Shown here: positions 16,237 to 54,157 of the stretch, piece by piece
Layout: each line of letters opens with the position of its first letter
How positions within the stretch are numbered: position 1 is the stretch's first letter
Assembly: GCA_963597545.1 (NCBI GenBank)
Contig: CAVBQN010000002.1
Span: forward strand, 35,897 to 99,896
From: Fusicatenibacter saccharivorans
GTDB taxonomy: Bacteria > Bacillota > Negativicutes > Veillonellales > Dialisteraceae
Reading direction: 5' to 3'
DNA length: 64,000 nt
Translations under genes and position numbers: made by a program
Notes under the pieces: generated by a model
The model's database searches: none
What the model saw: only the letters and a program-made list of their open reading frames with translations
Told to the model about the DNA's origin: nothing

Positions 16237-16328
16237 TGTCAAGTGTCAGATGGCAAACGTCTGATATCTGATCTCTGACTTGTTCGTATCCTCCTTTCGG
16301 CTGCCCATGGGACTGCCCGCTCACACGG

Positions 16329-18933: not shown

Positions 18934-18934
18934 A

Positions 18935-32419: not shown

Positions 32420-32459
32420 ACAATTTGATCCTGTAAATAAGAGATGGTGTAAAGTTTTT

Positions 32460-32710
32460 GGGGATTAGTTTTTTACGTATTCTCATTTCGAGCTGAGGCG
32501 AGAAATCTCACTTGCAGACAGCGAAACGGCGAGTGCAAAACGACCGCTAGACGATGCTCTAAGGCGTCTCTTCTGCATAGTCGCACAGGTGCGGATAACC
32601 GCAGTGCAAGAAAGATCCCTCCACTTCGGTCGGGATGACGGATACGAGAAAAAACCGTCTGCCATCTGATGTTTCTCTAATCCCTAGTCACCAGTCCCCA
32701 GCCACTACAA
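32460..32710. repeat. composite intergenic element (inverted pair of E modules plus heptad array) in the ftsQ-ddl spacer
   Basis: GGGGATTAG (32460); E reversed (32481-32515); E forward (32598-32648); the CTAATCC/CAGTC array at 32675-32710 ends at the ddl stop codon. Confidence 0.85.
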
Positions 32711-33646
32711 TCACACCTTATCCAGCCCCGCTTCGAGGAGAATCTTCTCACAAAGCGCAGGGAACGAGATCCCTGCCGCTGCAGCGGCTTTCGGGACGAG
32801 GCTCGTCGCCGTCATGCCCGGGATGGAATTGGCTTCCAGAAGATGCGGACGGCCTTCGCAGTCAGTCTTGAAGTCGAAACGGCACGCCCCATCACATTCC
32901 GCCATGCGGTAGCCGATTTCTGCGAGACGGCTCATCTCTTCCGCCAGTGCATCCGAAATCGGAGCCGGGACGAGGTAGTCTGTCGCGCCCTTGGTGTACT
33001 TGGAGTGGTAATCATAGGAGCCCGAGTGCGGGCAGATCTGGATGACCGGCAGTGCTTTGCCGTCCAGCACGGAAACGGTGAATTCCTCACCGGACAGGAA
33101 AGCCTCTGCGAGAATCCTTGGCTCTACCGAAAAGACGCGGTCGATCGCCTCTTTCAGATCTTTTTCTTCTTTGACGATCTCGATACCGATGGTCGAGCCT
33201 TCACAGGCTGGCTTCAGGACGACCGGAAGGGTAAAGCTCTTGCCAATGTCCTCTTCGACATTTTCCTTCCCATCCTTCAGATAGTAGGGTTTGGAAAAGG
33301 CCATGGGGAGGCCCGCCTGCTTGAAGAAATGGCTGCTCATGATCTTATCCATGGTGATGGCGCTCGAGGTCACGCCAGAACCCGTGTATGGGATGCGGGC
33401 AAGTTCGAGTACGCTCTGGATGGTGCCATCCTCCCCGTACTTGCCATGCAGCGCGATGAATACGGCATCGGCCTTCGCTTCTTTCAGCTGCTCCACCACA
33501 TGATGCGGATCATATTCCAAAGGAATGGCCTGATAGCCAATGGAAGTCAAGGCTTCTAAAATGGCCTTCCCTGTATTTCTTGAGACTTCTGCCTCTCTGG
33601 AGGGTCCTCCCATGAGGACCACGATTCTGCTCTCTTTAGTAATCAC
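32711..33646 (-). CDS. ddl: D-alanine--D-alanine ligase
   Basis: VLMGGPSREAEVS N-terminus with an ATP-grasp core. GTG start overlaps the murC stop (GTGA). Confidence 0.93.
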   Translation of the reverse strand: MITKESRIVVLMGGPSREAEVSRNTGKAILEALTSIGYQAIPLEYDPHHVVEQLKEAKADAVFIALHGKYGEDGTIQSVLELARIPYTGSGVTSSAITMDKIMSSHFFKQAGLPMAFSKPYYLKDGKENVEEDIGKSFTLPVVLKPACEGSTIGIEIVKEEKDLKEAIDRVFSVEPRILAEAFLSGEEFTVSVLDGKALPVIQICPHSGSYDYHSKYTKGATDYLVPAPISDALAEEMSRLAEIGYRMAECDGACRFDFKTDCEGRPHLLEANSIPGMTATSLVPKAAAAAGISFPALCEKILLEAGLDKV

Positions 33647-35037
33647 TTTTTCAACCCTTTATCCTTCACCAACTGAATGAGTTCTTCCCCTGCGCGGTAA
33701 ATGCTGCCGGCGCCCATGGTGATGATCATATCTCCCGGCTTTACGAAATCATAAAGTGCCTGAGATACGCCTTCCACGGTATCCACATAGTGGATCTCTT
33801 TCTCCGGCAGACGCTTGTGAACCAGCGAGGGGATCAGGTGTCCGTCGACGCCTTCGATCGGTGCCTCACTTGCCGCATAGATATCGGTGAAGAAGAGTAC
33901 ATCCGCATCATCAAAGGCTTCGGCAAACTCCTGCTGCAGCAGCTGCGTGCGGGAATAGCGATGCGGCTGGAAGGCACAGATGATGCGATGATCGCCTGTC
34001 TCTCTCGCTGCTTTCAGAGTTGCTTTGATTTCCGTCGGATGGTGTGCATAGTCATCGACCACCCAAAGATCATTTTCTCTGGACTTCGTCTCGAAGCGAC
34101 GCTTCACTCCCACGAAATGAGACAGCGCCGTCTCGATCGTTTCCATCGGGATGCCGCAGTAGAGCGCTGCGATCACAGCTCCCAGCGCATCACGGATATT
34201 ATGCGAGCCCGGGATCTGCAGCTCGATGGTGCCGAGCGTCTTACCCTCATGCACCACATCGAAAAGAAGATGCCTGTTTTCGTATCGCTTGTTCACGGCC
34301 CGATAGTCAGCTTTTTCATTGAGCCCGTAGGTGATGCAGGTCTTATGGATCTCGGGCAGGATCGCGCATACGCCCTCACTGTCGGTGCATACGATGGCGA
34401 CGCCGTCCTCGTAGCAGATATGGCTGATGAATTCGGAAAAGGCACGACGGATATTTTCGACGCTGCCATAATGATCCAGATGGTCATCCTCGATATTCGT
34501 CACCACTGTCATATAGGGGGAAAATTTCAGGAAAGAGCCGTCGCTTTCATCCGCTTCCGCGATGACATACTCGCCTTTTCCGAGGCAGGAATTTCCTCCG
34601 ATATAGCTGGCTGCCGCTCCGAGAACGATCGTCGGATCTTTGCCCGCTTCATAGAAAATCTGGCCCACCATGGCAGAGGTCGTGGATTTCCCATGTGCGC
34701 CTGCGACTGCGATGCCTTTGCCCCAGTGGAACATGGCTGCCAGCACATCGGAGCGATGGAACACGGGAATGCCAAGACGTCTCGCTTCCACGAGCTCCGG
34801 ATTTTCTTCGGAAATCGCCGAAGAAATGACCACGCAGTCAGCACCCCTTACATGAGAGGCTTCATGCCCGATATAAATCTCTGCGCCTTTTTTTCGGAAA
34901 TCGCGCAGGAAGGGAGAGTCTGCTACATCGGAACCGGAAATGCGATCCCCCTTGTCCAGCAGAATGACGGCCAGCGCACGCATGCCCATACCGCCGATCC
35001 CTATAAAATGGAATGTATGATACTTCGTGAGGTCCAT
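33643..35037 (-). CDS. murC: UDP-N-acetylmuramate--L-alanine ligase
   Basis: FIGIGGMGM and GAHGKSTT motifs, 464 aa. Confidence 0.95.
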   Translation of the reverse strand: MDLTKYHTFHFIGIGGMGMRALAVILLDKGDRISGSDVADSPFLRDFRKKGAEIYIGHEASHVRGADCVVISSAISEENPELVEARRLGIPVFHRSDVLAAMFHWGKGIAVAGAHGKSTTSAMVGQIFYEAGKDPTIVLGAAASYIGGNSCLGKGEYVIAEADESDGSFLKFSPYMTVVTNIEDDHLDHYGSVENIRRAFSEFISHICYEDGVAIVCTDSEGVCAILPEIHKTCITYGLNEKADYRAVNKRYENRHLLFDVVHEGKTLGTIELQIPGSHNIRDALGAVIAALYCGIPMETIETALSHFVGVKRRFETKSRENDLWVVDDYAHHPTEIKATLKAARETGDHRIICAFQPHRYSRTQLLQQEFAEAFDDADVLFFTDIYAASEAPIEGVDGHLIPSLVHKRLPEKEIHYVDTVEGVSQALYDFVKPGDMIITMGAGSIYRAGEELIQLVKDKGLKK

Positions 35038-35049
35038 AATCGTCTTCCT

Positions 35050-36156
35050 TTATTTAATGAGCGACAGTGCAAGTCTTGCGATATCCTCTCCGGCATGCAC
35101 TTTTTTCAAAGTGCCGATGGACTTCTCCATCGTCTGAAGGGCTTCGGGATGCTCGCGAAGCGCTGTGATATTTTCGATGAATTTGGCGCCAGAGACGTCC
35201 TTATCCAGGATCATCTTCGCCGCGCCCGCCTCAGAAAAGACGCGGGCATTGTATGTCTGGTGATCCTCCGCCGCATAGGGATACGGGATCAGGATGGCCG
35301 GCAGCTCTCTCGCTGCGACCTCCGCCAGACTGATGGCTCCCGCGCGGCAGATGATGAGATCGGCCGCCGCCAGTGCATTCGGCATATGGTACTCATAGCG
35401 GATGATGCGGCTCGCAGAACCGTAATGCCCATCCTCCTCGCAGCCGAGTGCGCTCGTGATCTTGTCATACTCCAGCTCGCCCGTCACATGGTAAAGGCAC
35501 AGGTTCTTCGCATCCTTGAAATGGCGATGCACATCCAGCATCGCAGTATTGATCGTCCTCGCTCCGCGGCTGCCGCCGGTGACCAGTACCATGAAGGTAT
35601 CCGGCGAAAGCCCGAGTGCCTTGCGGGATGCCTCCCGCTTGGCTTCCATGATGTCAGGACGGATCGGATTTCCTGTATAGATGCATTTCTCAGGATGCGG
35701 GAAACGGGATCCGGCTGCTTCATAGCCCAGCGCGATCTTATCGACCACGCGGGAAAGGATCTTATTCGTGATCCCCGGGATCACATTCTGCTCCTGAATC
35801 AGCGTCGGGATATGAGAGAGCGCTGCCGCCATCAGGATCGGCCCGCATACATAGCCGCCCGTCCCGATGACTACGTCCGGCGCGAAATCTTTCAGAATCC
35901 GGCGCGCTTTGAACAGGCTGCCTGCAGTACGACACAGGATACCGATATTTTCCAGCGTCAGCTTCCGCTTCAGGCCCGAAGCCGGCAGCGAGGCGAAACG
36001 ATACCCTTCTTTCGGAATGATACGTGACTCCATCCCATTCGGCGTGCCCACGAAAAGAAATTCTGTTTCTTCCAGTTTTGCTATTTCTTTAGCAATGGTG
36101 ATGGCCGGGTAAATATGTCCCCCCGTACCGCCGCCAGATAAAATAACCCGTTTCAT
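35050..36156 (-). CDS. murG: undecaprenyldiphospho-muramoylpentapeptide beta-N-acetylglucosaminyltransferase
   Basis: SGGGTGGHIYPA motif, 368 aa. Confidence 0.95.
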   Translation of the reverse strand: MKRVILSGGGTGGHIYPAITIAKEIAKLEETEFLFVGTPNGMESRIIPKEGYRFASLPASGLKRKLTLENIGILCRTAGSLFKARRILKDFAPDVVIGTGGYVCGPILMAAALSHIPTLIQEQNVIPGITNKILSRVVDKIALGYEAAGSRFPHPEKCIYTGNPIRPDIMEAKREASRKALGLSPDTFMVLVTGGSRGARTINTAMLDVHRHFKDAKNLCLYHVTGELEYDKITSALGCEEDGHYGSASRIIRYEYHMPNALAAADLIICRAGAISLAEVAARELPAILIPYPYAAEDHQTYNARVFSEAGAAKMILDKDVSGAKFIENITALREHPEALQTMEKSIGTLKKVHAGEDIARLALSLIK

Positions 36157-36202
36157 GAATGATACATTCTCCCATGTTGATGGTCTGTAAATGATAATTG
36201 GA

Positions 36203-36540
36203 AAGGTTTAAGGATTCAAGGTTCAGGGTTCAGGGTTAGCCCACGGGGCATGCTGTCCTTGATTACGTTTGAAAGCCTCGATTGAATTAGAAATTAGAAA
36301 TGGTGGTGCGGCGCATAAAAATACAGAAGCGCCGCGGAAGTTTGAAACTAGCGGTTTTCTCGCATCGCAAACCTAATCCCTAGCTACTAATCCCTAGCTA
36401 CCAGTCACAAGTCACCAGTCACTCATACCTGCTTTCAAACTTTAGGGTTCAGGATCGTGGAGGCGGCTTCGCCGCAAATATATAACTCCGCGGCGCTTTC
36501 TAATTTTAAGCGCCGCACCACCACCCTGAACCCTGAACCC
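36203..36540. repeat. 338-bp imperfect palindrome made of two inverted composite units (murG-murD spacer)
   Basis: The left arm runs GGTTCAG repeats, W (36236-36284), AATTAGA x2, K (36302-36343), L, then a heptad array (36372-36423). The right arm carries reverse K (GCGCCGCACCACC) and CCCTGAACCCTGAACCC (36524-36540). Confidence 0.9.
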
Positions 36541-36587
36541 ATTATTTCCTGAACAGGAAAATGAGCGAATCCTCGATTTCCCTTTTC

Positions 36588-37934
36588 TCAAAGCCCCTTA
36601 ACGATTTTCTTGAAATCCATGCCGCGCTCTTCCATATTCTTATACATATCGAAAGAGGAGCAGGCCGGTGAAAGGATGACGACATCCCCCGGTTTCGCCA
36701 GCTTCTGTCCGAGGAGGACGGCCTCTTTCATAGAGGATACGCGGTGGATCGAAGAGACGCCCGCCTCTCTGGCCGCTTCCTCGAAACGCTCAGCCGCAGC
36801 GCCCAAAAGGATGAGCTCTTTCGTATGACGGCGCACGACCTGCATGAAATCAGAAAGAGGCGTCCCCTTATCATGGCCGCCGGCGATCAGGATGACCGGC
36901 TTGTCGAAGGCTTCCATGCCTTTGACGGCTGCATCAGTATTCGTGGCCTTGGAGTCATTGTAGTACGATACGCCATCCAGCTTGCGAACAAATTCGATGC
37001 GGTTCGGAAGAGCGGCGAAGGTCTTCAACGCCTCTATGATGACCGCCGTGTCGACGCCGCCCTCATGTGCCAGGAAAGCAGCCGCCAGGCAGTCCTCGAT
37101 ATTCTGTTTCCCCTTCAGCAAGAGCTCACCTGCCGTGCAGAGAGGAATGGTTTCTCCCCTTCTCTTCAGCACGAGACGGTCACCGGAGAGGCATGCGCCT
37201 TCCTCGACCCCGTGCGAGGTAGAGAGCAGACACACATGGGTGTGCGCTTCCGCCTGCTTTTTAAGCATCGGCGTATAGGGATCATCCGCATTCAGAAGGA
37301 TGCAGTTTGTTTCGTCCATATTTTCAAAAATGCGTGCCTTGGCTGCCACGTAGGCCTCCATGGTGTGATGACGCTCCAGATGGTCGGGCGTGATATTCAG
37401 GATGACCGCCGCCTTCGGCTGGAAATGGGTGATGAATTCCAGCTGGAAGCTCGAAACTTCCGCTGCGATCAGCCCGTTCTCCGGCACCAGCTCGGCTTCG
37501 CGGGAAAGGGAGATCCCCAGATTTCCTGCCAGAGCAAAGGGCCTCCCTGAGTGCGAGAGCATGCTGCCTAACAGCGTCGTGGTCGTGGTTTTCCCATTCG
37601 TCCCCGTGATGGCAAGGATCGGCGCCTTCGTCACGCGAAAGGCCAGCTCGACTTCGCTCAGGACAGGGATACCCCGCTTCATCGCCCCCTGGATCACGAC
37701 ATTTTCCGCCGGGATGACAGGAGAAACGACGACGGCATCCATCCCGTCCAAAAGGCTCTCCGACTGCGCGCCGAAGCAGAACTCCGCCCCGAGCCCGATG
37801 AGCTCTTCTTTTTCTTTTGTATTCTGTATCTGATCTTTCAGATCTGAAATCACGACATGGGCTCCATGACGGAGAAGTACATGGGCTGCGCCAAGGCCGC
37901 TGATGCCGGCGCCCAGAATCAATACATTTTTCAA
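36588..37934 (-). CDS. murD: UDP-N-acetylmuramoylalanine--D-glutamate ligase
   Basis: LGAGISGLGAA and GTNGKTTT motifs. TTG at 37934 (GGGAGG 5 nt upstream) preferred; the ORF-track ATG at 37961 has no RBS. Confidence 0.92.
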   Translation of the reverse strand: MKNVLILGAGISGLGAAHVLLRHGAHVVISDLKDQIQNTKEKEELIGLGAEFCFGAQSESLLDGMDAVVVSPVIPAENVVIQGAMKRGIPVLSEVELAFRVTKAPILAITGTNGKTTTTTLLGSMLSHSGRPFALAGNLGISLSREAELVPENGLIAAEVSSFQLEFITHFQPKAAVILNITPDHLERHHTMEAYVAAKARIFENMDETNCILLNADDPYTPMLKKQAEAHTHVCLLSTSHGVEEGACLSGDRLVLKRRGETIPLCTAGELLLKGKQNIEDCLAAAFLAHEGGVDTAVIIEALKTFAALPNRIEFVRKLDGVSYYNDSKATNTDAAVKGMEAFDKPVILIAGGHDKGTPLSDFMQVVRRHTKELILLGAAAERFEEAAREAGVSSIHRVSSMKEAVLLGQKLAKPGDVVILSPACSSFDMYKNMEERGMDFKKIVKGL

Positions 37935-37972
37935 AGCATACCTCCCATGATAGTAAAACATGGATAGTCGAA

Positions 37973-38107
37973 GGGGACTGGTGGCTAGTGACTAGTAGCC
38001 AGGGATTAGGAATCGGCGCGGAAAGCATCCGATTTCATACATCATCTCGCCGTCTCTTAGTCTCTTAGTCTTCAGTCTTTAGTCTCCCAGTCTCCTAGTC
38101 TCTCAGT
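37973..38107. repeat. composite element with opposed period-7/8 arrays (murD-mraY spacer)
   Basis: GGGGACTGGTGGCTAGTGACTAGTAGCCAGGGATTAGGAAT (37973-38013) is the reverse orientation of the CTAATCC/CAGTCAC array. A (C)TNAGTCT x8 array (38052-38107) runs into the mraY stop codon. Confidence 0.85.
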
Positions 38108-39076
38108 CTATGGCAGTGCATAGATTGCCAGCATCAGGCTGCCTGCCGCGGCGAGGCCCTCGAAGATCCAGAAGGACCAGACGACACGGACTTCGCTCCA
38201 GCCGGACAGTTCGAAATGATGGTGCAGCGGACTCATCTTGAAGACACGCTTGCCCGTTGTTTTGAAAGAAATGACCTGAATGATGACAGATAAGGCTTCC
38301 AGCACAAAAATCAGTCCGAGAAAGGCGAGCAGCAGCTCTGTCCGGGTCATGACCGAAATCCCGGCAATGGCTCCGCCGAGGGCGAGCGAGCCGGTATCCC
38401 CCATGAAGACCTTGGCCGGGTGATAATTGAAGAAAAGGAATCCAATGCAGGCCCCTGCCAGAATGATGATGAAATAGCCGAGGTCATGAAATCCTGTCAT
38501 ATAGCAGAAGACCGCATAGGCCGTAAAAGCGATGACGCAGCAGCCGGAAGCCAGCCCGTCCAGTCCATCCGTCAGGTTCACCGCATTCGAAGCCCCCACG
38601 ATGACAAGGACAACGAAAGGATAGTACAAAAGTCCGATGGAAATATCCATCGTCGTGAATGGGATCGCGATCGAGTACGGCAGGTGCAGGGTATCGACGA
38701 CGCCCCAGCAGAAGAGCACGGCGAGGATCAGCTGCCCCAGCATTTTCTGCTTGGCGGTCAGCCCCAGATTTCTTTTCTTTTCCGCCTTGATAAAGTCATC
38801 GAGAAATCCTAAAAGCCCATGCCCCAGCGTCAGGAAAAGGAGCCAGAGGACCGATGGATCCAAGAGGCGATTGAAGAGGACCACCAGTACCATCGCTGTC
38901 AGCATGAAGAGCCCGCCCATGGTCGGTGTGCCGCTCTTGGCCCGATGAGACTTCGGTCCTTCGGTGCGGATCGACTGGCGCGCCTTCAATTTTTTCAAAA
39001 GCGGAATGCCCACCCATCCGCAGATGATGGTGAGAACCGCTGCTTCCAGCAGGTATATACAATAATTACTTTCCAT
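38108..39076 (-). CDS. mraY: phospho-N-acetylmuramoyl-pentapeptide transferase
   Basis: Polytopic membrane protein with NAVNLTDGLDGLA and HHHFE motifs. Overlaps the murF stop. Confidence 0.95.
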   Translation of the reverse strand: MESNYCIYLLEAAVLTIICGWVGIPLLKKLKARQSIRTEGPKSHRAKSGTPTMGGLFMLTAMVLVVLFNRLLDPSVLWLLFLTLGHGLLGFLDDFIKAEKKRNLGLTAKQKMLGQLILAVLFCWGVVDTLHLPYSIAIPFTTMDISIGLLYYPFVVLVIVGASNAVNLTDGLDGLASGCCVIAFTAYAVFCYMTGFHDLGYFIIILAGACIGFLFFNYHPAKVFMGDTGSLALGGAIAGISVMTRTELLLAFLGLIFVLEALSVIIQVISFKTTGKRVFKMSPLHHHFELSGWSEVRVVWSFWIFEGLAAAGSLMLAIYALP

Positions 39077-40466
39077 CCTTTGTCAGAACTCCCCTCAAGA
39101 GCATTGGTACTTTTTCCATATGCATATAGTGCGAACCCTTCACCAGCACGGCATCACCGGCTTTGGCCAGAGACGCCAGCTTCTCGGCAGCCTCTTCACA
39201 GGTCTCATACGAGAAAACAGACGTCATGCCGCCCTCTTTGGCACTGGAAGCCAGATGGTGAGAGAGAGGTCCCACCGTGATGAGGCCGTCAAACCCCATG
39301 GCGGCGGCTTTCTTTCCCGTCTCACGGTGCAGCGCCTCTTCCATCTCGCCCAGCTCTCCCATATCGCCCAGCACCAGATAATGATGCGAAGCGGGGATCT
39401 GCTTCAGCGAGCCGAAGGCCATTTCCATGGAGAGCGGATTCGCATTGTACGAGTCATCCATGACGGAAATCCCTGCGATGGTAAGCAGTGTCTGCCGCTG
39501 ACCGATCGGATGGAAATCCGCAAATGCTTTTTGAATTTTCCGGCTGTCCACGCCAAGGACGCGGGCTGCCGCGATGGCGGCCAGCGCATCGTAGACATTG
39601 TGTACGCCGAGAAGATGGAGCTTCACGCGGAATGCTTCATCAAAAGACGTGCAGATGAACTGGGTATGCGAAGCCTCATAGCGCACATCTGTCCCGCGGA
39701 CGGTATAGCGCCCTTCGAGGCCATAGGAAATCACACGCCCCTCGAAGCCGTCCCCCATCGCTTTGACGAAGGGGTCGTCTCCATTCAGGATCGCTGTGCC
39801 ATCCTTCGGCAGTGCTTCGATCAGCTCGGCCTTCGCCTTCGCGATATTTTCCTGACTGCCCAGGATCCCGATATGCGATGTGCCGACATTGGTCACGATA
39901 CCGATGGTCGGGCTGGCGATCGCACAAAGCTCTGCGATCTGGCCGAAGCCGCGCATCCCCATTTCTACGACGCAGACTTCCGTCTCTTTTGTCATCGAGA
40001 GAAGCGTCATGGAAAGACCGATCTCATTATTGAAATTCTTCTGTGTCGCACAGACATGAAAACGAGACGACAGGAGCGCTGTCGTCATGTCTTTCGTCGT
40101 TGTTTTTCCATTAGATCCCGTGATGCCGATCACCGGCACATGGAAACGCATACGGTGAAAATGGGCAAGATCTTCCAGTGCCTTCTTCGTATCCTTTACA
40201 AGAAACGCCGATACATCGGAAGGCAGCTCCGCGGCAAAAGAAGCATCCGAAAGGATGACCCCCGAAGCCCCTCCTTCGCACGCCTTTTTCAGAAAGGCAT
40301 GCCCATCAAAATTTTCTCCTTTAAGAGCCAGAAACAGATTCCCCGTCTCGATCGTGCGGGTATCGGTACTGACCCCGTCCATAGACGGCTCCCTGCCGCG
40401 CTGGAGCAATGACGCCCCGCAGGCTCTTTCTATTTCTTCTATCGTAAATGAAGCCATGAATTTCAC
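39066..40466 (-). CDS. murF: UDP-N-acetylmuramoyl-tripeptide--D-alanyl-D-alanine ligase
   Basis: GITGSNGKTTTK motif and Mur ligase domains, 466 aa. Confidence 0.94.
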   Translation of the reverse strand: MKFMASFTIEEIERACGASLLQRGREPSMDGVSTDTRTIETGNLFLALKGENFDGHAFLKKACEGGASGVILSDASFAAELPSDVSAFLVKDTKKALEDLAHFHRMRFHVPVIGITGSNGKTTTKDMTTALLSSRFHVCATQKNFNNEIGLSMTLLSMTKETEVCVVEMGMRGFGQIAELCAIASPTIGIVTNVGTSHIGILGSQENIAKAKAELIEALPKDGTAILNGDDPFVKAMGDGFEGRVISYGLEGRYTVRGTDVRYEASHTQFICTSFDEAFRVKLHLLGVHNVYDALAAIAAARVLGVDSRKIQKAFADFHPIGQRQTLLTIAGISVMDDSYNANPLSMEMAFGSLKQIPASHHYLVLGDMGELGEMEEALHRETGKKAAAMGFDGLITVGPLSHHLASSAKEGGMTSVFSYETCEEAAEKLASLAKAGDAVLVKGSHYMHMEKVPMLLRGVLTKDGK

Positions 40467-40497
40467 TCCTTCAGTAGTTTACCCAAAAGCGAAGTGC

Positions 40498-42000
40498 CTA
40501 TGCCTGCTTCAGCGCTTTCCTCGCTTCTTCCCTATCGTCGAAATGAATGGTCTTATCTTTCAGGATCTGGTAGTCTTCATGGCCCTTGCCGGCGATGAGG
40601 ACGATATCGTCTCCCTTGGCGAGGGAAATCGCCTTCTGAATGGCGCTTCTTCTGTCGACCACCACTTCCACCTGCAGAGACGGCTTCTCCGCCTTCACTT
40701 CTTCGACACCGGCTGCCACTTCTTTCACAATGGTCTCCGGGTCTTCCGTGCGCGGATTATCACTGGTCACGATCGCCACATCCGCATAGCGGGCAGCGAT
40801 GCGTCCCATGATCGGGCGTTTCAGCTTGTCGCGGTCACCGCCGCAGCCGAAAACGACCAGGATGCGGCCCTTCGTGATCTCCTGCGCCGTCGTCAGGATC
40901 TTCTCAAGACCATCCGGGGTATGCGCGTAGTCGACCACGACAGTGAAGGACTGGCCCTCATCGATCAGCTCGAAACGACCCGGCACGCTGTGGAATGTCT
41001 TCATGGCAGCCACAATGGTTTCCATGGAAATCCCTTCGGAAAGCGCCGCGCCGATCGCGCCCAGTGTATTATAAATATTGAAACGGCCCGCCAGCTTCGT
41101 TTCCAGCTGGTAGGTCTTCCCTTCATAAGTCACCTTGAAAGCGGAAGACTTACCGGTGAACTGACTGTCAAAGGCATACAGATCCGCCGTCTTGTCACTC
41201 ATGCTGTAGGTGTGAAGATCCGCCACCTTCTGGTCGACAGCATCCATCATCACATGGGCATACGGGTCATCCACATTCACCCACGCCGACTTATTCCCCT
41301 TCGTCTGTCCTGCGGAAGATACCTTCTCGAAAAGGATGGCCTTGGCTTTCGCATAGTTGTCCATCGTCTTATGATAGTCCAGATGGTCTTCCGTGAGGTT
41401 CGTGAAGACAGCATTGTCAAACTCCACGCCCTCGACGCGCCCCATGACGAGCGAATGGGAAGACACTTCCATGCACACATGGGTGACCTCTTCTTCTACC
41501 ATCTGCCAGAGCAGACGTTCCAGATCAATGACATCCGGTGTAGTATTGTGCGTCGGCAGCTCCTTATCCCCGATCAGGGCGTGGATGGTGCCGATGACAC
41601 CCGTCTTGTAGCCCGCCTGCTCAAGGATATGGCTCACGACATGGGTCGTGGTGGTCTTGCCATTCGTCCCCGTAAGCGCGATCATACGCATCTTGCGTGC
41701 CGGATAGTCAAAGAAAAACGGCACCATATCTTCCATCGCTTTTCTGGTATCTGCCACATAGATGACAGCGACCCCTTCCGGTACCTCGACCTCTTTGGAA
41801 GCCACGATGACTTTCGCCCCCAGCTCCACGGCAGAGCCTACGAACCGATGTCCATCCACATGCGCCCCTTCGAGGCAGAAGAAAAGGCTGCCCTCTTTCA
41901 CCTGCCGCGAGTCCGCTGTCACATCCAAAATTTCAATATCTGTGTCGCCTTCTGTGCGAAGGACCGGCGTTGTTTTCAGTAATTCTGCTAATTTTTTCAA
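40498..42000 (-). CDS. murE: UDP-N-acetylmuramoyl-L-alanyl-D-glutamate--2,6-diaminopimelate ligase
   Basis: LTGTNGKTTT and the DNPR motif (meso-DAP type). TTG at 42000 (AGAGGTG upstream; MKKLAELL) preferred over the ORF-track GTG at 42039. Confidence 0.92.
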   Translation of the reverse strand: MKKLAELLKTTPVLRTEGDTDIEILDVTADSRQVKEGSLFFCLEGAHVDGHRFVGSAVELGAKVIVASKEVEVPEGVAVIYVADTRKAMEDMVPFFFDYPARKMRMIALTGTNGKTTTTHVVSHILEQAGYKTGVIGTIHALIGDKELPTHNTTPDVIDLERLLWQMVEEEVTHVCMEVSSHSLVMGRVEGVEFDNAVFTNLTEDHLDYHKTMDNYAKAKAILFEKVSSAGQTKGNKSAWVNVDDPYAHVMMDAVDQKVADLHTYSMSDKTADLYAFDSQFTGKSSAFKVTYEGKTYQLETKLAGRFNIYNTLGAIGAALSEGISMETIVAAMKTFHSVPGRFELIDEGQSFTVVVDYAHTPDGLEKILTTAQEITKGRILVVFGCGGDRDKLKRPIMGRIAARYADVAIVTSDNPRTEDPETIVKEVAAGVEEVKAEKPSLQVEVVVDRRSAIQKAISLAKGDDIVLIAGKGHEDYQILKDKTIHFDDREEARKALKQA

Positions 42001-42184
42001 AACAGTCACCTCTGGTTTTGTATGTAGGAAACAAGACACCCGTACTGCCGGATGTCATCCGCTTCCTGTACTATATGAGTATTCTATGAGTCGTGCTTTT
42101 GAAATCATCATGGCATGAGCTTTCACCTCCGTCAGAGACGACGCTCGAATGCCACTCATTATATTAGCTTAAAACTATGGCAAG

Positions 42185-42540
42185 CACAAGGGGCTGTGAA
42201 AGATGAAATTTCATTTTCACAGCCCCTTTCTTGTGTAGTTCACTACTATCGCCTTATTTTGGGGAACGCATTGATTCATTTTGAGTAAGGTTCAATGGGT
42301 ACAACGGGTTCAACGGAGATGGTGCGGCGCATTTCGTCATCCTGAGCGGAGAAAAACGTCGTATGTTAAAAAATGGCTTATCTGAAATAATGAGAACTGA
42401 GTCGAAGGATCTAAGCGCCGCAGAGTTTTTAAGGAACCGTTATTTCCCCCAAATGGCAATGCCATTAAGGAAACATCATTGCCCAAAATGGGAAACCCGT
42501 TGAACCTTTTGACCCCTCAGAACCTTCCGAACCCATTTCT
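42185..42540. repeat. composite element: T hairpin (copy 1) plus GGTTCAA-type arms flanking a K module that carries a split E module (murE-ftsL spacer)
   Basis: T hairpin at 42188-42228. GGTTCAATGGGTACAACGGGTTCAACGG (42289-42316) faces CCGTTGAACC...GAACC (42498-42533). The K stem GGTGCGGCGC...GCGCCGCAG (42320-42424) encloses GTCATCCTGAGCGG / TGAGTCGAAGGATCT. Confidence 0.8.
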
Positions 42541-42924
42541 CTATCTCCCTTTATTCGGGTGCGGTTTGGCGGGATCCGCGCTGCCGTAGACCGCACGGAC
42601 AGGCAGGCTCATCTTGAGCTTCTGCTCTGCGATCTGCTGAATGCGTACCGGTGCCTCCAGACGGGACACTTCGAGCTTATCCACGGCATTCTCCTTCGCC
42701 ATCGTCATGACCTCGCTGCGAATCCGCTGCATTCTATATTCCTCTTGAATATTGATACCATTCAGGAAGACCAGCAGCATCACAGGAAGAAGAATCATCA
42801 ACGTCCCTAGAATGATGTCATGGAAAAAATAGGAAGAATCAGACTTTTCGCGCTCGATCCGTCGAGGCGCGACGCTTTCCGGCATCGACGGCATGTAACC
42901 CATGACTTGCACATCCTGTACCAT
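42541..42924 (-). CDS. ftsL: cell division protein FtsL
   Basis: 127 aa. One TM (ILGTLMILLPVMLLVFL), a coiled region and an FtsL-like RIQQIAEQKLKM motif. Follows rsmH. AGGAG RBS. Confidence 0.75.
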   Translation of the reverse strand: MVQDVQVMGYMPSMPESVAPRRIEREKSDSSYFFHDIILGTLMILLPVMLLVFLNGINIQEEYRMQRIRSEVMTMAKENAVDKLEVSRLEAPVRIQQIAEQKLKMSLPVRAVYGSADPAKPHPNKGR

Positions 42925-42960
42925 ACGATATCTCCTATCTTTGATCCGACTCTATATCTC

Positions 42961-43225
42961 AGGGTGAGCCCCTGGGGCGTGTCGCCCTTTGATTTCATTG
43001 TGAAATAGGTTCAGCAGGTTCTATAGGTTCTGAGGGTTCAACGGGGAAGGTGCGGCGCATAAAAATCAGAAGCGCCGCGGAGGTTTAAGGAAACGCTGAT
43101 TAAATCGCAGAGTCAAATCGAACAACGATTTAATCAGTGTTTCCGTAAAACTAGCGATTTTCTCGTATCGCAAACCTAATCCCTAGCCACTAATTCCTAG
43201 TCACCAGCCACTAGTCACTAATCTC
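42961..43225. repeat. composite unit W, AGGTTC array, K, 19-bp hairpin, L, heptad array (ftsL-rsmH spacer)
   Basis: Module order matches 36203-36423. An extra hairpin GGAAACGCTGATTAAATCG...CGATTTAATCAGTGTTTCC lies at 43089-43144. The array ends at the rsmH stop codon. Confidence 0.9.
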
Positions 43226-44158
43226 CTACACCCTTTCCACGACGCGAAGAACAGCACTCCTCGCACGCGGATTCTCCTCGATTTCCTTCGCGCTCGGCTT
43301 TTGCGCCTTGCCGACGGACTTCACCAGACGATGGTGGTGGCACACACAAACAGGCAGCTCCGGCGGGCAGATGCAGTCCCTTTCCATTTCTTTGAAAGTT
43401 TTCTTGATGATGCGGTCTTCCAGCGACTGGAACGTGATGACGCCGACGCGTCCCCCCACTTTCAGGTGGGAAACGCAGGCTTCCATCGTGTCTTTCAAGA
43501 TTCCCAGCTCATTATTTACCTCGATGCGGATCGCCTGAAATGTGCGCTTCGCGGGGTGCGGGCCATTTCTTCTAGCATGCGCCGGAATGGCCGCCTTGAT
43601 GACCGAGACCAGATCATCCGTCGTCTCGATGGGCTTCTTCTCGCGGAATTCGCAGATAAACTGCGCGATCCGCTTCGCCCATCGCTCTTCTCCATACTCC
43701 CAGATGATGCGCGCAAGCTCTTCCTCTTCATAGGTATTCACGATCTCATACGCCGTGCGCGGATTTCTCTGATCCATTCGCATATCGAGCTTTCCATTAT
43801 TCATATAAGAGAAGCCACGGCTGCCATCATCGAGCTGATGAGAAGAAACCCCCAGATCGAAAATGAAGCCATCGACCTTCTCTATATTGAGCGATGCCAG
43901 AATGTCATGGATGTGAGAAAAATTATCCCGTACCAGAAGATGACGGCAGGCACAACCGGAAAGGCGCTGAGAAGCCGCCTCGATCGCTTCTTCATCCTGA
44001 TCGACGCCGATCAGAAGCGCATCCGGAGCGAGCTTCTCCGCCATAGCGAAAGAATGCCCGCCGCCCCCTAAGGTACAGTCGACATAAATGCCATGAGGAT
44101 CCGTCAGGATCCGGTCGATCATTTCGTGCAGAAGCACGGTGGTGTGTTGAAATTCCAT
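43226..44158 (-). CDS. rsmH: 16S rRNA (cytosine1402-N4)-methyltransferase
   Basis: HTTVLLHE, TLGGGGHS and DLGVSSHQLD motifs. ATG at 44158 chosen; the ORF-track extension runs into a repeat element. Confidence 0.95.
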   Translation of the reverse strand: MEFQHTTVLLHEMIDRILTDPHGIYVDCTLGGGGHSFAMAEKLAPDALLIGVDQDEEAIEAASQRLSGCACRHLLVRDNFSHIHDILASLNIEKVDGFIFDLGVSSHQLDDGSRGFSYMNNGKLDMRMDQRNPRTAYEIVNTYEEEELARIIWEYGEERWAKRIAQFICEFREKKPIETTDDLVSVIKAAIPAHARRNGPHPAKRTFQAIRIEVNNELGILKDTMEACVSHLKVGGRVGVITFQSLEDRIIKKTFKEMERDCICPPELPVCVCHHHRLVKSVGKAQKPSAKEIEENPRARSAVLRVVERV

Positions 44159-44175
44159 AAATAAGTCCTCGAAAA

Positions 44176-44560
44176 AAGGTTCAGGGTTCAGGGGTAGCCT
44201 GTGGGTCGTGCCGTTCCTTGATTGGGGATGAAAGCTTCGCATAAATTAGGAATTAGGAATGAGGAATTAGGAATGAAGGTGGCGGCTTCGCCGCAGAGTA
44301 TAAATAGGGCGATGCCCGAAGGCGGTATTCAAGTCACTAGTCACCAGTCACTAGTCACTCTAATCCCCAATCCCTAATACCTAGCTACTCATCCCTGCTT
44401 TCAAACTTCAGGGTTCAGGGTTAGCCCCTGGGGCGTGACGTCCCTTGATTGTGAATGAAAGCTTTGCTCGAATGAGAAATGAGAAACGAGAAATAGCGGT
44501 CTCTCGTTTCGCAAACCTAATCCCCAGCTACTAATCCCTAGCCACCAGTCACCAGTCACT
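44176..44560. repeat. two tandem composite units (rsmH-mraZ spacer)
   Basis: Unit 1 is 44176-44389 and unit 2 is 44390-44560. Each has GGTTCAGGGTTCAGGG, W, an AAT[TG]AG[GA] heptads block, a K/L core, then a GTCAC/CTAATCC array. The junction reads CATCCCTGCTTTCAAACTT. Confidence 0.9.
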
Positions 44561-44565
44561 ACAAA

Positions 44566-45000: not shown

Positions 45001-45005
45001 ATCCT

Positions 45006-45049
45006 TCCACCTCCTCCACATTTACCCACATTCTACCACAATCCCCCAC
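45006..45049 (-). promoter_or_regulatory. MraZ operator: five direct GTGGN boxes at 9-10 bp spacing
   Basis: Minus strand reads GTGGGggattGTGGTagaatGTGGGtaaatGTGGAggagGTGGA. On the plus strand these are NCCAC at 45006, 45015, 45025, 45035 and 45045. This matches the published MraZ box pattern (GTGG[GT] repeats on a 10-bp phase) and overlaps the -10. Confidence 0.75.
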
Positions 45050-47847: not shown

Positions 47848-47870
47848 AAAAGACTCCTGAGAAAAAGAAT

Positions 47871-48338
47871 AAGGGATTAGGGGTTCAGAGGGTTCAGAGG
47901 GTTCAGAGGGTTAAACAGGTTCAGCGGGTTCAACGGGGGTGGTGCAGCGCATCATCATAGGGAAGCGCCGCGGAGTTTTAGAATATATGATATTCACGAA
48001 AGATGAAAAACCTGTGAACCTTTTGAACCTGTTTAACCTATGAGGATTCCTATAACGGGAAGATGGTTATTTTCTGCTTTCAAACTTTTGGGGGTATCCC
48101 TTTCCCTTATCGTCTCGTCATCGAAAGCGCTTCCGATGATTCTTTCTTGCACTGCGGTCAGTATCACATAGGCACTGATACGGAAATGACGCCTCGGTAC
48201 TGCGTATTTCTCCTTTCTCGCATCCTTCGTTTATCGATCTGCAAGAAAGATTTCTCACTTCGCTCGAAATGACGATACGGGGGCTGATGTCTTCTAGTCT
48301 CCTAGTCTAATCCCTAGTCCCTAATCCCCAGCCCCTAG
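47871..48338. repeat. composite element in the uvrC-uvrA spacer
   Basis: GGGATTAGGGG plus (GGGTTCAGA)x3 at 47873-47910. K at 47938-47980. GAACC-type arm at 48010-48045. GCTTTCAAAC at 48076. Truncated reverse E at 48136-48158 and forward E at 48241-48281. The array at 48291-48338 abuts the uvrA stop. Confidence 0.88.
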
Positions 48339-51179: not shown

Positions 51180-51211
51180 GGATGTCCTTTCGAAATTGAA
51201 GGAAAATGTAT

Positions 51212-51506
51212 GGGGGATTTAGGGGAGCCCCTGGGGCGGCTCCCCTTGATTCCATTTGAAAGCCTCGATTGAATGAGAAATGGCTGATAACCGTTGTGCT
51301 ATTGAGATTTCTCGGCTTCGCTCGAAATGACGAGACGAGAGAAGCGATTGTCTTACATACATCGTTTACCTTTCTGCAGAAGGGTGCCTCTTCGAGGCAC
51401 TCTATCCTCCGCCTTTGGCGCGCCCCTTCTTCAAGAGGGCTACTCAGCTGGCAGGGCAAAACGAACCCCTAATCCCTAATCCCCAGCCACCAGTCACTAG
51501 TCACCC
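51212..51506. repeat. composite element in the uvrA-uvrB spacer
   Basis: W at 51222-51271, AATGAGAAAT, E at 51304-51340, a PG-like pair of hairpins at 51372-51440, and the CCCCTAATCCCTAATCCCCAGCCACCAGTCACTAGTCACCC array (51466-51506) 5 nt from the uvrB stop. Confidence 0.88.
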
Positions 51507-51511
51507 AAAAA

Positions 51512-53657: not shown

Positions 53658-53686
53658 ATTATAGCATAGATGGGAAGGGGTGACTA
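53658..53686 (-). promoter_or_regulatory. candidate promoter of uvrB
   Basis: -10 TATAAT (53658-53663), 17-bp spacer, -35-like TAGTCA (53681-53686) contributed by a GTGACTAG repeat fragment. Confidence 0.4.
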
Positions 53687-54157
53687 GGGAGAACGCTCCT
53701 CTCCCACGACTTTCATCCCGCCGCGAGAGCCAACCTCCGCCCTTTCGGGGCACCTCCTTCCATGGGAAGGAGGGAGAATGCCGCCTCACGGACTCCCCAT
53801 ACAGATAGCTTTCGATACGAAAATGCCGCTTCCCCGCATTCGTCATTTCGAGCGAAAGCGAGATATCTTTTTCGTTCGCGGTCAAGGCAAAGTATGTGAG
53901 AGGATCGGCAAGCGGGAAACACCGTACTCCCTGCGCCCCGGAAGGACGGTGTTTCATGCAAACTGATTCACGCATGAAACAGAAAATGGCAAACGAAAAG
54001 ATCCCTCGGCTCCGCTCGGGATGACGATACGAGAATACTATCTTCTAAAAAAAAGGCGGCGAAGCCGCCATCTCAACCCTGAACCCTGAAGCAAATGAAA
54101 GCAAAGTAAAAAGGGGCTGTGAAGAAATGAGAATTCATTTCTTCACAGCCCCTTTTT
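53679..54157. repeat. repeat-dense spacer upstream of uvrB
   Basis: GGTGACTAGGG (53679), PG at 53730-53780, E reversed at 53841-53870, E forward at 53997-54032, and segment 54026-54157, which duplicates 45589-45718 and includes the T hairpin. Confidence 0.88.
54108..54156 (-). terminator. terminator after the hybrid sensor gene (repeat module T, copy 3)
   Basis: Same hairpin as at 45668-45718. It begins 1 nt after the TGA and is followed by a T-run on the minus strand. Confidence 0.8.

What the first reader, a model, noticed from the sequence alone, without database searches (positions are those of the whole stretch)
38052..38110. Period-7 arrays of different sequence flavours begin right after stop codons
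Six genes are followed within 0-6 nt of their stop codon by a degenerate heptad array on the same side. These are ddl (array 32675-32710), mraY (38052-38107; the TAG stop is part of the ..CAGTCTA phase), rsmH (43175-43225), mraZ (44516-44560), uvrA (48291-48338) and uvrB (51466-51506). The repeat unit differs between and within arrays (CCTAATC, CCTAGCT, ACCAGTC, TTAGTCT; also GGTTCAG, AATTAGA/G, AATGAGA and a 9-mer GGGTTCAGA elsewhere), but the 7-nt phase and an AGTC/AATC core are kept. A conserved period with drifting sequence is not what simple copying of one mobile element predicts. It suggests slippage-driven arrays or selection for a phased protein- or RNA-binding platform. One fragment also supplies the -35-like hexamer of the putative uvrB promoter.
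Basis: seen in the sequence. Interest (0 to 1): 0.65.

Follow-up and report, generated by a model that had tools for sequence, protein, structure and literature searches.

The report
Variable seven-base repeats after stop codons
In one lineage of the human-gut bacterium Dialister, runs of seven-base repeats that vary in length between strains start at gene stop codons, as the leading edge of patchwork repeat DNA that has swollen tiny gaps between genes; similar repeats are known in cyanobacteria and Xanthomonas, but their strict gene-direction polarity here is new.

Summary
All six named genes are followed within 0-5 nt of their stop codon by a short-period array. Period-7 segments are about 25-fold over shuffles. 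The headline array (38052-38107) is mostly period 8, not 7.

The window comes from an uncultured Dialister (Negativicutes, human gut). The arrays are the stop-proximal, G-rich edge (on the mRNA strand) of mosaic, partly palindromic intergenic repeats. These have expanded ancestral operon junctions of about 11-12 nt to 110-600 nt.

Between strains with 99-100% identical MraY, arrays differ by whole units (35/42/63/91 nt) or are absent. In some alleles the array overwrites the last 4-9 codons and supplies the stop.

In 36 independent Dialister-like contigs, the first array starts no more than 10 nt from the stop in 40 of 89 array-bearing spacers. 42 of 43 stop-adjacent arrays are G-rich on the sense strand, including those after likely lagging-strand genes.

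The best reading is STRR-like, slippage-prone heptanucleotide arrays tied to REP/BIME/MITE-like mosaic elements, mostly neutral or selfish. A selected post-stop RNA role is not excluded. This is a new variant of a known kind.

The parts
38052..38107 (-). Array directly after the mraY stop. Sense strand reads TAG|ACTGAGAG ACTAGGAG ACTGGGAG ACTAAAG ACTGAAG ACTAAGAG ACTAAGAG. Mixed 8/7-nt period.
   Evidence: There are 5-9 units in other strains. It is absent, with a 114-nt spacer, in L007/9/11/13/14.
37974..38011 (-). Partner array in the same spacer, C-rich on the sense strand (CCTAATC CCTGGCT ACTAGTC ACTAGCC ACCAGTC), just upstream of the murD start.
   Evidence: Its length is 35/42/63/91 nt between strains, exact multiples of 7.
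32675..32710 (-). Heptad array 0 nt after the ddl stop. Sense strand: TGA TTGTAG TGGCTGG GGACTGG TGACTAG GGATTAG.
   Evidence: Unit number and mix vary between strains. Array-free strains keep a 2-unit relic, AGTGACCGGGGAC.
43175..43225 (-). Heptad array 0 nt after the rsmH stop, 7 units with strict 7-nt spacing.
   Evidence: It has 2-8 units in other strains. A relic GGAGCGACCGGGGATC stands there in L007-L013.
44516..44560 (-). Heptad array 5 nt after the mraZ stop.
   Evidence: The ancestral mraZ-rsmH spacer is about 12 nt in array-free Dialister.
48291..48338 (-). Heptad array after uvrA. The TGA stop is part of the first TGACTAG unit. This is the only one of the six with four or more G3 tracts.
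   Evidence: It is also present in the isolate genome L013.
51466..51506 (-). Heptad array 5 nt after the uvrB stop.
16237..16280 (+). Heptad hairpin (TGTCAAG TGTCAGA TGGCAAAC GTCTGAT ATCTGAT CTCTGAC) 0 nt after the stop of the only plus-strand gene (NMO-type oxidoreductase).
   Evidence: fold -18.1 kcal/mol, z -2.9.
36157..36587 (-). Whole murD-murG spacer, a nested palindromic mosaic. Outer (GGTTCAG)n...(CTGAACC)n arms enclose GGTGGTGCGGCGC hairpins, an internal GTGACTR/GGGATTA array (36366-36423) and an AATTAGA array.
   Evidence: The RNA fold gives z -7.9. The spacer is 111-607 nt between strains and about 11 nt in array-free relatives.
44159..44565 (-). Whole mraZ-rsmH spacer, a mosaic with two G-rich arrays (44516-44560 and 44332-44389), AATGAGA and AATTAGG arrays, and CTGAACC arrays next to the rsmH start.
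   Evidence: Fold z -3.6. The spacer is 179-535 nt between strains.
42925..43225 (-). rsmH-ftsL spacer mosaic: array, then the TTTGCGATACGAGAAAATCGCTAG module, a palindrome, a GC hairpin, a 9-nt GAACC array and a start-proximal module.
47848..48338 (-). uvrA-uvrC spacer mosaic: array, an about 200-nt MITE-like unit, and the 9-nt array pair (GGGTTCAGA)n 47881-47932 with 48004-48044 around a GC hairpin.
51180..51511 (-). uvrB-uvrA spacer mosaic. It is bracketed by a G-rich array at the stop and CCCTAAATCCCCC near the uvrA start.
53680..53689 (-). A single heptad-like unit (sense CCCTAGTCAC) whose TAGTCA matches a -35 hexamer upstream of uvrB.
   Evidence: TAGTCA-17-TATAAT, 10 of 12 positions, TG present. 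This is a consensus match only.

Best explanation
What they are. The arrays are lineage-specific, hypervariable tandem repeats of a 7-nt unit (locally 8 or 9 nt). They are of the same general kind as cyanobacterial STRRs and the Xanthomonas/Nostoc heptamers. They form the stop-proximal edge of mosaic, partly palindromic intergenic repeat elements. Those elements resemble REP/BIME and MITE elements and have colonised gene junctions in one Dialister clade.

How they behave.
1. Shown: the mosaic DNA sits in junctions that are only about 11-12 nt long, or even overlapping, in array-free relatives. It therefore has to begin at the stop codon.
2. Shown: in some alleles it overwrites the last 4-9 codons, and an array unit (TAG or TGA) becomes the new stop.
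3. Inferred: this is tolerated because a 7-nt period is coprime with 3. Any unit that holds a stop triplet therefore closes all three frames within 21 nt.
4. Shown: unit number and unit mix differ between strains.
5. Inferred: this arises by slipped-strand mispairing or unequal recombination. Arrays can collapse to 2-unit relics.
6. Shown: polarity follows the gene. The strand is G-rich on the mRNA right after stops and mostly C-rich before starts.
7. Inferred: polarity reflects selection on read-through transcripts inside operons. One example would be avoiding a C-rich, untranslated landing site for the termination factor Rho straight after a stop.

The arrays themselves are most likely neutral or selfish passengers, not dedicated regulators.
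For: Organism and distribution.
- MraY is 99-100% identical to uncultured Dialister genomes.
- Arrays occur only in one clade, sister to the array-free D. succinatiphilus clade.

Variation between strains.
- Array-bearing spacers range over 111-607, 179-535, 114-255 and 257-526 nt. Array-free spacers are constant at 15, 28-34 and 176-177 nt.
- Differences come in whole units.
- Modules are present, absent or duplicated between strains.

Ancestral junctions are tiny.
- mraZ-rsmH is about 12 nt and murD-murG about 11 nt in array-free species.

Codon overwriting.
- HAD alleles end ...AGHFTIG*...GLENRG*(TAG)TAGCTAGTGACTGG or ...GACDW*(TAG).
- In L023, MurF ends ...GLLGSGD*TAG|TGACTGG, with about 590 nt inserted into a junction that normally overlaps by 8 nt.
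- Further cases are L090, L140, L144 and L149.

Other species.
- Arrays of other unit flavours also start at the stop in other species.

Genome-wide sample of 36 Dialister-like contigs.
- 206 arrays, 184 of them outside called genes.
- The first array starts no more than 10 nt from the stop in 40 of 89 array-bearing spacers.
- In 19 of 22 cases the stretch from the stop to the matched array is heptads throughout.
- 42 of 43 stop-adjacent arrays are G-rich on the sense strand. This includes all 10 after minority-orientation genes.
- Near starts, 53 arrays are C-rich and 23 G-rich on the sense strand.

Other points.
- Nested palindromic architecture: the murD-murG spacer folds with z -7.9.
- There is no Rfam family and no tRNA in the window.
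- Precedent: Xanthomonas heptamers lie on average 28 nt from the upstream ORF and 160 nt from the downstream one, form 70-75 inverted pairs and vary in length.
Against: - Insertion plus purifying selection does not by itself explain the near-absolute polarity of 42:1. Nor does it explain why arrays, rather than other modules, always face the stop.
- Only 3 of 40 stop-adjacent arrays have an inverted partner of the same unit in the same spacer. Palindrome symmetry therefore does not explain polarity.
- The same sites (the 3' ends of rsmH, ftsL, mraY, murD and uvrA) carry arrays in several species although the unit sequence has turned over. That could mean the position is selected.
- No transposase or RAYT and no target-site duplication was found. 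The mobility mechanism is therefore not shown.
- All-frame stops are barely enriched: 31 of 43, against 58% for tandem arrays of shuffled units.
- Slippage itself was not observed. Only its expected product, whole-unit differences between strains, was seen.
- No read-level or strand-specific RNA data were available.
Confidence: 0.6

Rival explanations
1. The arrays are a selected post-stop RNA element. G-rich heptads within about 10 nt of the stop would act on the read-through operon transcript. Possible roles are modulating termination or ribosome release (as REP sequences within 15 nt of a stop do in E. coli), blocking 3'-5' decay, or keeping Rho from loading. That would let junctions be expanded without polar effects.
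For: - Tight placement: 29 of 89 first arrays lie at or over the stop and 11 more within 10 nt.
- Polarity is relative to the gene, 42 of 43, and independent of replication proxies.
- Position persists across species while the sequence turns over.
- 4 of 7 stop-adjacent arrays fold better than shuffles, with z about -3.
- REP precedent.
Against: - Arrays are present or absent at the same gene between strains with 99-100% identical proteins.
- Unit number and sequence are unconstrained.
- There is no consistent structure: mraY z -0.4, uvrB z -0.6.
- Only about a quarter of spacers in the window have an array at the stop.
- Related species do without arrays altogether.
Confidence: 0.2
2. The arrays are a phased DNA- or RNA-binding platform for a lineage-specific protein, iteron-like or nucleoid-associated.
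For: - A fixed 7-nt register with conserved GACT/GATT cores.
- A clade-restricted distribution.
- Three units make 21 bp, about two helical turns (inference).
Against: - There are 204 distinct units among 1023, and species of the clade use different dominant units.
- Array length is unconstrained.
- No candidate protein was identified.
- The same GTGACTR arrays occur in contigs of 26-72% GC and in viral contigs. That argues against one dedicated partner.
Confidence: 0.07
3. The arrays are G-quadruplex-forming repeats, as proposed for Xanthomonas GGGAATC and Nostoc GGGGAYT. They would act through G4 DNA or RNA.
For: - GGGATTA and GGGGACT units are present, at 8.6% and 1.1% of units.
- The uvrA array has four G3+ tracts.
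- The G-rich strand is the mRNA strand.
Against: - The dominant units, GACTAGT and GACTGGT, have no G3 tract.
- Only 1 of the 6 window arrays has four or more G3 tracts.
- The GGTTCAG, AATGAGA and AGACATC families cannot form a G4.
Confidence: 0.05
4. The arrays are contingency loci. Changes in unit number would switch genes on and off (phase variation).
For: - The unit length is not a multiple of 3, and copy number varies between strains.
- Some arrays overlap the last codons.
Against: - The arrays sit at 3' ends and in spacers, not in 5' coding regions or between -35 and -10.
- A frame change only alters a tail of up to 9 residues and always meets a stop within a few codons.
- The neighbours are housekeeping genes (dcw cluster, uvrABC).
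Confidence: 0.03

Closest known systems
Cyanobacterial STRR (short tandemly repeated repetitive) heptanucleotides, Calothrix/Nostoc (Mazel et al. 1990, cited in PMC4692102; unit sequences CCCCAGT, TTGGTCA, CAACAGT from my own memory)
   Same: Tandem 7-nt units, many dispersed copies, mainly non-coding DNA, several unit families in one genome, function unknown. Some Dialister units are identical to CCCCAGT/GGGGACT (1.1%) or one base away: CACCAGT, and GTGGTCA in L015.
   Different: A different phylum (Negativicutes, human gut). The dominant units differ. Here the arrays are embedded in mosaic palindromic elements and show strict polarity relative to stop codons. I could not check STRR positions or polarity, because the original paper is not held.
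G-rich heptamer repeats of Xanthomonas (GGGAATC) and Nostoc PCC 7120 (GGGGAYT), Rehm et al. 2015, PMC4692102
   Same: Intergenic heptamers lying much nearer the upstream ORF (mean 28 nt) than the downstream one (160 nt). They show 70-75 convergent pairs, strong length variation between related strains and heterogeneous units.
   Different: In Xanthomonas the G-rich strand is on the coding strand about as often as not (30-35% against 35%), and in Nostoc 18% against 34%. Here the ratio is 42:1 at stops. Most Dialister units lack a G3 tract. Overwriting of terminal codons and mosaic nesting were not described in the sections I read.
REP / BIME / REPIN elements of enterobacteria and pseudomonads
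   Same: Intergenic, palindromic, and arranged as mosaics of modules in alternating orientation. A large share lie within 15-20 nt of the upstream stop codon, where they affect translation (Liang et al. 2015, via PMC12306157). They are often inside operons.
   Different: REPs are single imperfect palindromes of 20-40 nt, not tandem heptads. REPINs are linked to RAYT transposases, which I could not look for. The copy-number variation here is in sub-units of 7 nt.
MITEs and modular small repeats (pneumococcal BOX, Neisseria Correia; from my own knowledge)
   Same: Non-autonomous and present or absent between strains. BOX is modular with a variable number of internal units. They sit in intergenic sites and are co-transcribed with neighbours.
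   Different: No terminal inverted repeat plus target-site duplication could be defined for the array-bearing mosaics. The variable unit is 7 nt, not 45 nt.

Membership tests
STRR-type heptanucleotide tandem repeats | Tandem repeats with a 7-nt unit | tested here: met
   Core spacing is strictly 7 in 5 of 6 arrays, while the mraY array is 8/7. Intergenic autocorrelation peaks at lags 7/14/21.
STRR-type heptanucleotide tandem repeats | Many dispersed copies, mainly in non-coding DNA | tested here: met
   About 19 arrays in the window. 206 arrays in 321 kb of Dialister-like contigs, 184 of them outside called genes. Repeat word depth is 50-100 times that of flanking genes.
STRR-type heptanucleotide tandem repeats | Canonical unit sequences (CCCCAGT, TTGGTCA, CAACAGT) and a cyanobacterial host | tested here: not met
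   The host is Dialister. CCCCAGT makes up 1.1% of units and the other two 0%. The canonical units are recalled from memory.
G4-forming heptamers (Xanthomonas/Nostoc type) | Each unit carries a G3+ tract, so four or more units can fold into a quadruplex | tested here: not met
   The dominant units, GACTAGT and GACTGGT, lack GGG. Only the uvrA array has four or more G3 tracts.
G4-forming heptamers (Xanthomonas/Nostoc type) | Intergenic, closer to the upstream ORF end, and polymorphic in length | tested here: met
   compared.
REP/BIME/REPIN | Imperfect GC-rich palindromes arranged as mosaics in intergenic DNA | tested here: met
   GGTGGTGCGGCGC-loop-GCGCCGCACCACC and GCGGCGAAGCCGC hairpins lie within nested inverted repeats.
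REP/BIME/REPIN | Association with a RAYT (IS200/IS605-like) transposase gene in the genome | not testable with these tools
   Only the window and flanks of up to 10 kb could be read, and no transposase is encoded there.
MITE | Terminal inverted repeats flanked by a target-site duplication; clean empty and filled sites | tested here: inconclusive
   The about 200-nt units with GTCATYYCGAGCG...CGCTCGAAATGAC ends occur as 1 or 2 copies, or present versus absent. Filled and empty alleles differ by segment replacement, and no clear duplication was seen.
Phase-variable contingency SSR | The repeat lies in a 5' coding region or promoter spacer, so that unit number switches expression | tested here: not met
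   The arrays lie at 3' ends and in spacers. Frame changes affect only a tail of up to 9 residues.

The most novel reading that the evidence does not exclude
Heptad arrays are a gene-direction-specific 'junction adaptor': G-rich units directly after stop codons and C-rich units before starts. On this reading they are selected because they let mosaic repeat DNA expand operon junctions 10- to 50-fold without polar effects, by capping translation, hiding Rho-loading sequence or shaping the read-through RNA. The same GTGACTR grammar, found in contigs of 26-72% GC and in 42 viral contigs, would then point to a widespread and so far undescribed rule for what sequence is tolerated next to stop codons.
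Probability: 0.15. Interest if true: 0.75.

Novelty: new variant of a known kind. Interest (0 to 1): 0.5.

Why it matters
Heptanucleotide repeats have been known in bacteria since 1990, and they are over-represented in many genomes. Still, PMC4692102 (2015) noted that no detailed literature on them existed.

This Dialister clade offers a tractable case for four reasons:
- It has hundreds of arrays.
- Closely related array-free species serve as controls.
- Many sequenced strains show gain, loss and whole-unit change.
- There is a cultured isolate.

The gene-relative polarity (42 of 43) and the alleles in which an array rewrites a protein's C-terminus are concrete, testable features. They could show whether such repeats are only tolerated junk or have a role at gene ends.

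Practically, these repeats break metagenome assemblies, inflate intergenic DNA from about 11% to 15-23%, create spurious ORFs, and could serve as strain-typing markers for a common gut genus.

Tried and rejected
- Rfam at gathering threshold, and at E up to 1, gave only chance miRNA-like hits on hairpins. There are no tRNAs.
- CRISPR-like, riboswitch or sRNA readings were dropped. There are no unique spacers of regular size, no family match and no conservation.
- Assembly artefact was rejected. The same arrays occur in many independent assemblies and in an isolate genome, L013.
- Greedy longest-ORF gene calling picked antisense shadow ORFs and was discarded. A codon-usage caller that recovers 46 of 49 curated stops replaced it.
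- 'All-frame stop codons are selected' was weakened. 31 of 43 looks 4-fold over mononucleotide shuffles (18%), but the fair null, tandem arrays of shuffled units, gives 58%.
- 'Polarity is a by-product of palindrome symmetry' was rejected. Only 3 of 40 arrays have an inverted partner of the same unit.
- 'Polarity follows replication' was rejected on proxies.
- RNA evidence was uninformative. Only assembled contigs of a relative about 94% identical were available, with no strand information. No raw-read DNA runs were available.
- My first test of ORF ends at arrays in other taxa is biased, because the G-rich strand stops every frame. A GC3-filtered version gives only a rough picture.
- The Mrazek 2007 and Mazel 1990 papers are not held.
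Full report
**What is at the coordinates**

On the plus strand, 38052-38107 reads tcttagtc tcttagtc ttcagtc tttagtc tcccagtc tcctagtc tctcagtc, followed by ta. The neighbouring gene is mraY, on the minus strand at 38108-39076. On the mRNA strand the array therefore starts with the stop codon itself: TAG|ACTGAGAG ACTAGGAG ACTGGGAG and so on.

TRF calls this array period 8 with 7.5 copies. The spacing between GACT cores is 8,8,8,7,7,8. They lie 0, 0, 5, 0 and 5 nt from the stop.

Period-7 self-matching segments number 11, against 0.4 in shuffles. Period-9 segments number 9, against 0.2. Other lags are at background.

The only plus-strand gene (15286-16236) is followed at 0 nt by a heptad hairpin. 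About 8 of 34 genes with a usable downstream spacer carry such an array.

**Whose genome it is**

The exact MraY protein is on record in 580 blocks of the assembly collection; the contigs shown come from human-gut metagenomes such as the Hadza set, plus one NCBI assembly. A scan of species-representative genomes places the window in an uncultured Dialister lineage, with 99-100% MraY identity to UBA10667, UMGS543/571 and isolate i34-0019-2H8. It is 88-90% identical to D. succinatiphilus.

Genes from 28 to 54 kb are all on the minus strand. In order they are:
- a dcw cluster: mraZ-rsmH-ftsL-murE-murF-mraY-murD-murG-murC-ddl-ftsQ-ftsZ;
- then uvrC, uvrA and uvrB.

**The arrays are edges of mosaic repeats**

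Every long spacer in this region is a patchwork of recurring modules:
- G-rich heptads on the mRNA strand (GTGACTR, GTRGCTR, GGGATTA) next to the stop;
- short hairpins (GGTGGTGCGGCGC-loop-GCGCCGCACCACC, and GCGGCGAAGCCGC);
- about 200-nt units with GTCATYYCGAGCG...CGCTCGAAATGAC ends;
- 9-nt GGTTCANNN arrays;
- C-rich heptads (CTGAACC, CCTAATT, TTTCTCA) next to the following start.

The murD-murG spacer folds as one nested hairpin with z -7.9. The mraZ-rsmH spacer gives z -3.6. No Rfam family matches.

**Strain comparison**

I compared the window with 14 other loci of the same lineage, which share 99-100% MraY identity.

| Spacer | Length range (nt) |
|---|---|
| murD-murG (array-bearing) | 111-607 |
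| mraZ-rsmH (array-bearing) | 179-535 |
| mraY-murD (array-bearing) | 114-255 |
| ddl-ftsQ (array-bearing) | 257-526 |
| murG-murC (no array) | 15 |
| murE-murF (no array) | 28-34 |
| ftsQ-ftsZ (no array) | 176-177 |

- In the mraY-murD spacer the flanks are identical, while the left array has 5-9 units. The right array is 35, 42, 63 or 91 nt, always a multiple of 7.
- Five strains have a 114-nt spacer without arrays. It is homologous in its core, and its stop (TAA) is at the same codon.
- At ddl and rsmH, the array-free strains keep 2-unit relics.
- Whole modules are present, absent, duplicated or exchanged between strains.

**Why the arrays start at the stop**

In array-free Dialister species the same junctions are tiny. 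The mraZ stop is followed by about 12 nt (TAA GGGGAGGGTTTC ATG). The murD stop is followed by about 11 nt. The 400-nt spacers of the window are therefore insertions into junctions with almost no room, and they must begin at the stop.

The insertion can go further and replace the end of the gene:
- The HAD-family gene (28547-29074) ends ...[10 protein letters not shown] in the window and five other strains.
- It ends ...EKLGLENRG* or ...EKLGLVNRG* in six strains, with TAG followed by TAGCTAGTGACTGG.
- It ends ...EKLGACDW* in one strain.
- In both of the last two forms the new tail and the stop are encoded by array units.
- In species L023, about 590 nt starting with an array lies between murF and mraY, which normally overlap by 8 nt. 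MurF there ends ...GLLGSGD*, with the TAG belonging to TAGTGACTGG.

**Other species, other units**

Array-bearing species form one clade in a tree of five dcw proteins. That clade is sister to the array-free D. succinatiphilus clade, and one member inside it has no arrays. Their dominant units differ: CAGTRAT and TAGTCGG in L015/L017, GTTGTTR and TAAGCAG in L018, AGTGAGG and GTGACTR in L023/L026.

Even so, the arrays again begin at or with the stop of rsmH, ftsL, mraY, murD, murE or uvrA. The period is the invariant and the sequence is not.

**An independent genome-wide sample**

Thirty-six of the metagenome contigs, 321 kb in all, are clearly from this Dialister lineage, but from other parts of the genome. 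A codon-usage gene caller trained on the window recovers 46 of 49 curated stops. With that caller:
- The contigs hold 206 period-7 arrays, 184 of them outside genes.
- 89 of 150 spacers of at least 60 nt have an array.
- In 40 of those 89 the first array starts no more than 10 nt from the stop, and in 29 of them at or over it.
- By eye, in 19 of 22 cases the DNA between the stop and the matched array is heptads throughout. Several arrays run into the last codons.
- Intergenic autocorrelation peaks at lags 7, 14 and 21 (0.311, 0.294, 0.283, against about 0.255). Array-free relatives show no peak.
- Intergenic DNA makes up 15.5-23% of sequence, against 10.7% in array-free relatives.

One caveat applies. 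These contigs were chosen because they contain one array. The positions and orientations of all their arrays were not part of that choice.

**Polarity**

Of 43 stop-adjacent arrays, 42 are G-rich on the sense strand of the upstream gene. This holds for all 10 arrays that follow genes in the minority orientation on their contig. It also holds for all 11 whose sense strand has negative contig GC skew. Polarity therefore follows the gene and not the replication strand, as far as these proxies go.

Near starts, arrays are C-rich on the sense strand in 53 cases and G-rich in 23.

Palindrome symmetry does not explain the polarity. Only 3 of 40 stop-adjacent arrays have an inverted partner of the same unit in the same spacer.

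In Xanthomonas and Nostoc no such bias was reported.

**Properties that turned out weaker than they looked**

- A 7-nt unit that contains TAG, TGA or TAA closes all three frames within 21 nt. 31 of 43 stop-adjacent arrays do so on the sense strand. But 58% of tandem arrays built from shuffled units would do the same. This is mostly arithmetic and not evidence of selection.
- Local RNA hairpins are moderate and inconsistent, with z from -0.4 to -3.4.
- Quadruplex potential is limited to the few arrays rich in GGGATTA.

**Comparison with what is known**

Heptameric repeats are reported as over-represented in many bacterial genomes (Mrazek 2007, as cited in PMC4692102). Three heptanucleotide families were described in Calothrix in 1990 (cited).

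Xanthomonas GGGAATC arrays are 89-93% intergenic. They lie on average 28 nt from the upstream ORF and 160 nt from the downstream one. They form 70-75 convergent pairs and vary in length between close relatives.

E. coli REP elements within 15 nt of a stop stall ribosomes (Liang et al. 2015).

The Dialister arrays share the kind of repeat and the 3'-of-gene placement with these. They differ in four ways: host phylum, dominant units, gene-relative polarity and documented overwriting of terminal codons. My two searches that included Dialister or Veillonellaceae returned no paper describing such repeats in either.

**Verdict**

The claim that the arrays are unrelated to repeated or mobile DNA does not. 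The binding-platform idea remains untested.

My best explanation, at confidence about 0.6, has three parts:
- The arrays are STRR-like, slippage-prone heptad arrays.
- They form the stop-side edge of mosaic intergenic repeats.
- Those repeats have expanded operon junctions in one Dialister clade.

On this reading the arrays are tolerated rather than needed. The strict polarity is the one feature this does not explain well. It keeps a functional post-stop role alive, at about 0.2.

Noticed in passing
window 42180-42240, 45668-45717, 54106-54158: Three copies of an almost perfect 46-nt hairpin (AAAGGGGCTGTGAAGAAATGA...TCATTTCTTCACAGCCCCTTTT) with T-runs on both sides. They look like a repeated bidirectional intrinsic terminator. 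One sits inside the dcw cluster, between ftsL and murE.
   Followed up: partly
window 32465-32665, 48090-48285, 53800-54045; L001 ddl-ftsQ spacer: MITE-like units of about 200 nt with GTCATYYCGAGCG...CGCTCGAAATGAC ends. Translated, they give the spurious peptides often seen in metagenome proteins (PSEAEGS, GFARDD). There is one copy in the window's ddl-ftsQ spacer and two tandem copies in other strains.
   Followed up: partly
window 47881-47932 with 48004-48044; 42286-42319 with 42490-42535; 43005-43045: Arrays with a 9-nt period (GGGTTCAGA, GGTTCAACG) occur as inverted pairs around a GGTGGTGCRGCGC hairpin. This is a second repeat period in the same mosaics. Being a multiple of 3, it is not frame-independent.
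   Followed up: partly
window 16501-24554: A low-GC (44% against 53%) block encodes a TonB-dependent receptor, a FecCD-type ABC transporter, a nitrogenase-like oxidoreductase and a LysR regulator. Its binding protein is found on only one other contig in the collection. Other strains carry different genes there, including a DpnII-type restriction system in L081. It is likely a rare accessory island.
   Followed up: partly
window 45022-45984: The DUF1659/DUF2922 gene pair that other strains have between uvrC and mraZ is missing here. About 960 nt of repeat-rich non-coding DNA stands in its place.
   Followed up: partly
window 28547-29074 (HAD-family gene) and loci L001-L014: Three C-terminal alleles exist within one species. 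In two of them the last residues and the stop codon are encoded by heptad units.
   Followed up: yes
window 30347-45000: The dcw cluster runs from mraZ to ftsZ without ftsW, a penicillin-binding protein (ftsI) gene or ftsA in their usual positions.
   Followed up: no
loci L085-L246 (metagenome and IMG/VR contigs): The same (GTGACTR)n arrays occur in contigs of 26-72% GC from soil, marine, sludge and gut samples, and in 42 viral contigs. They are often inverted pairs around a short core (for example L206, L221, L223), or sit as C-rich arrays just upstream of start codons (L236).
   Followed up: partly
Read laying on window 36000-45100 (runs X1-X3, X12): Assembled contigs of a relative about 94% identical break at every mosaic spacer. 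Repeat modules have 50-100 times the word depth of neighbouring genes, which implies dozens to hundreds of copies per genome. It also shows that these repeats fragment metagenome assemblies.
   Followed up: partly
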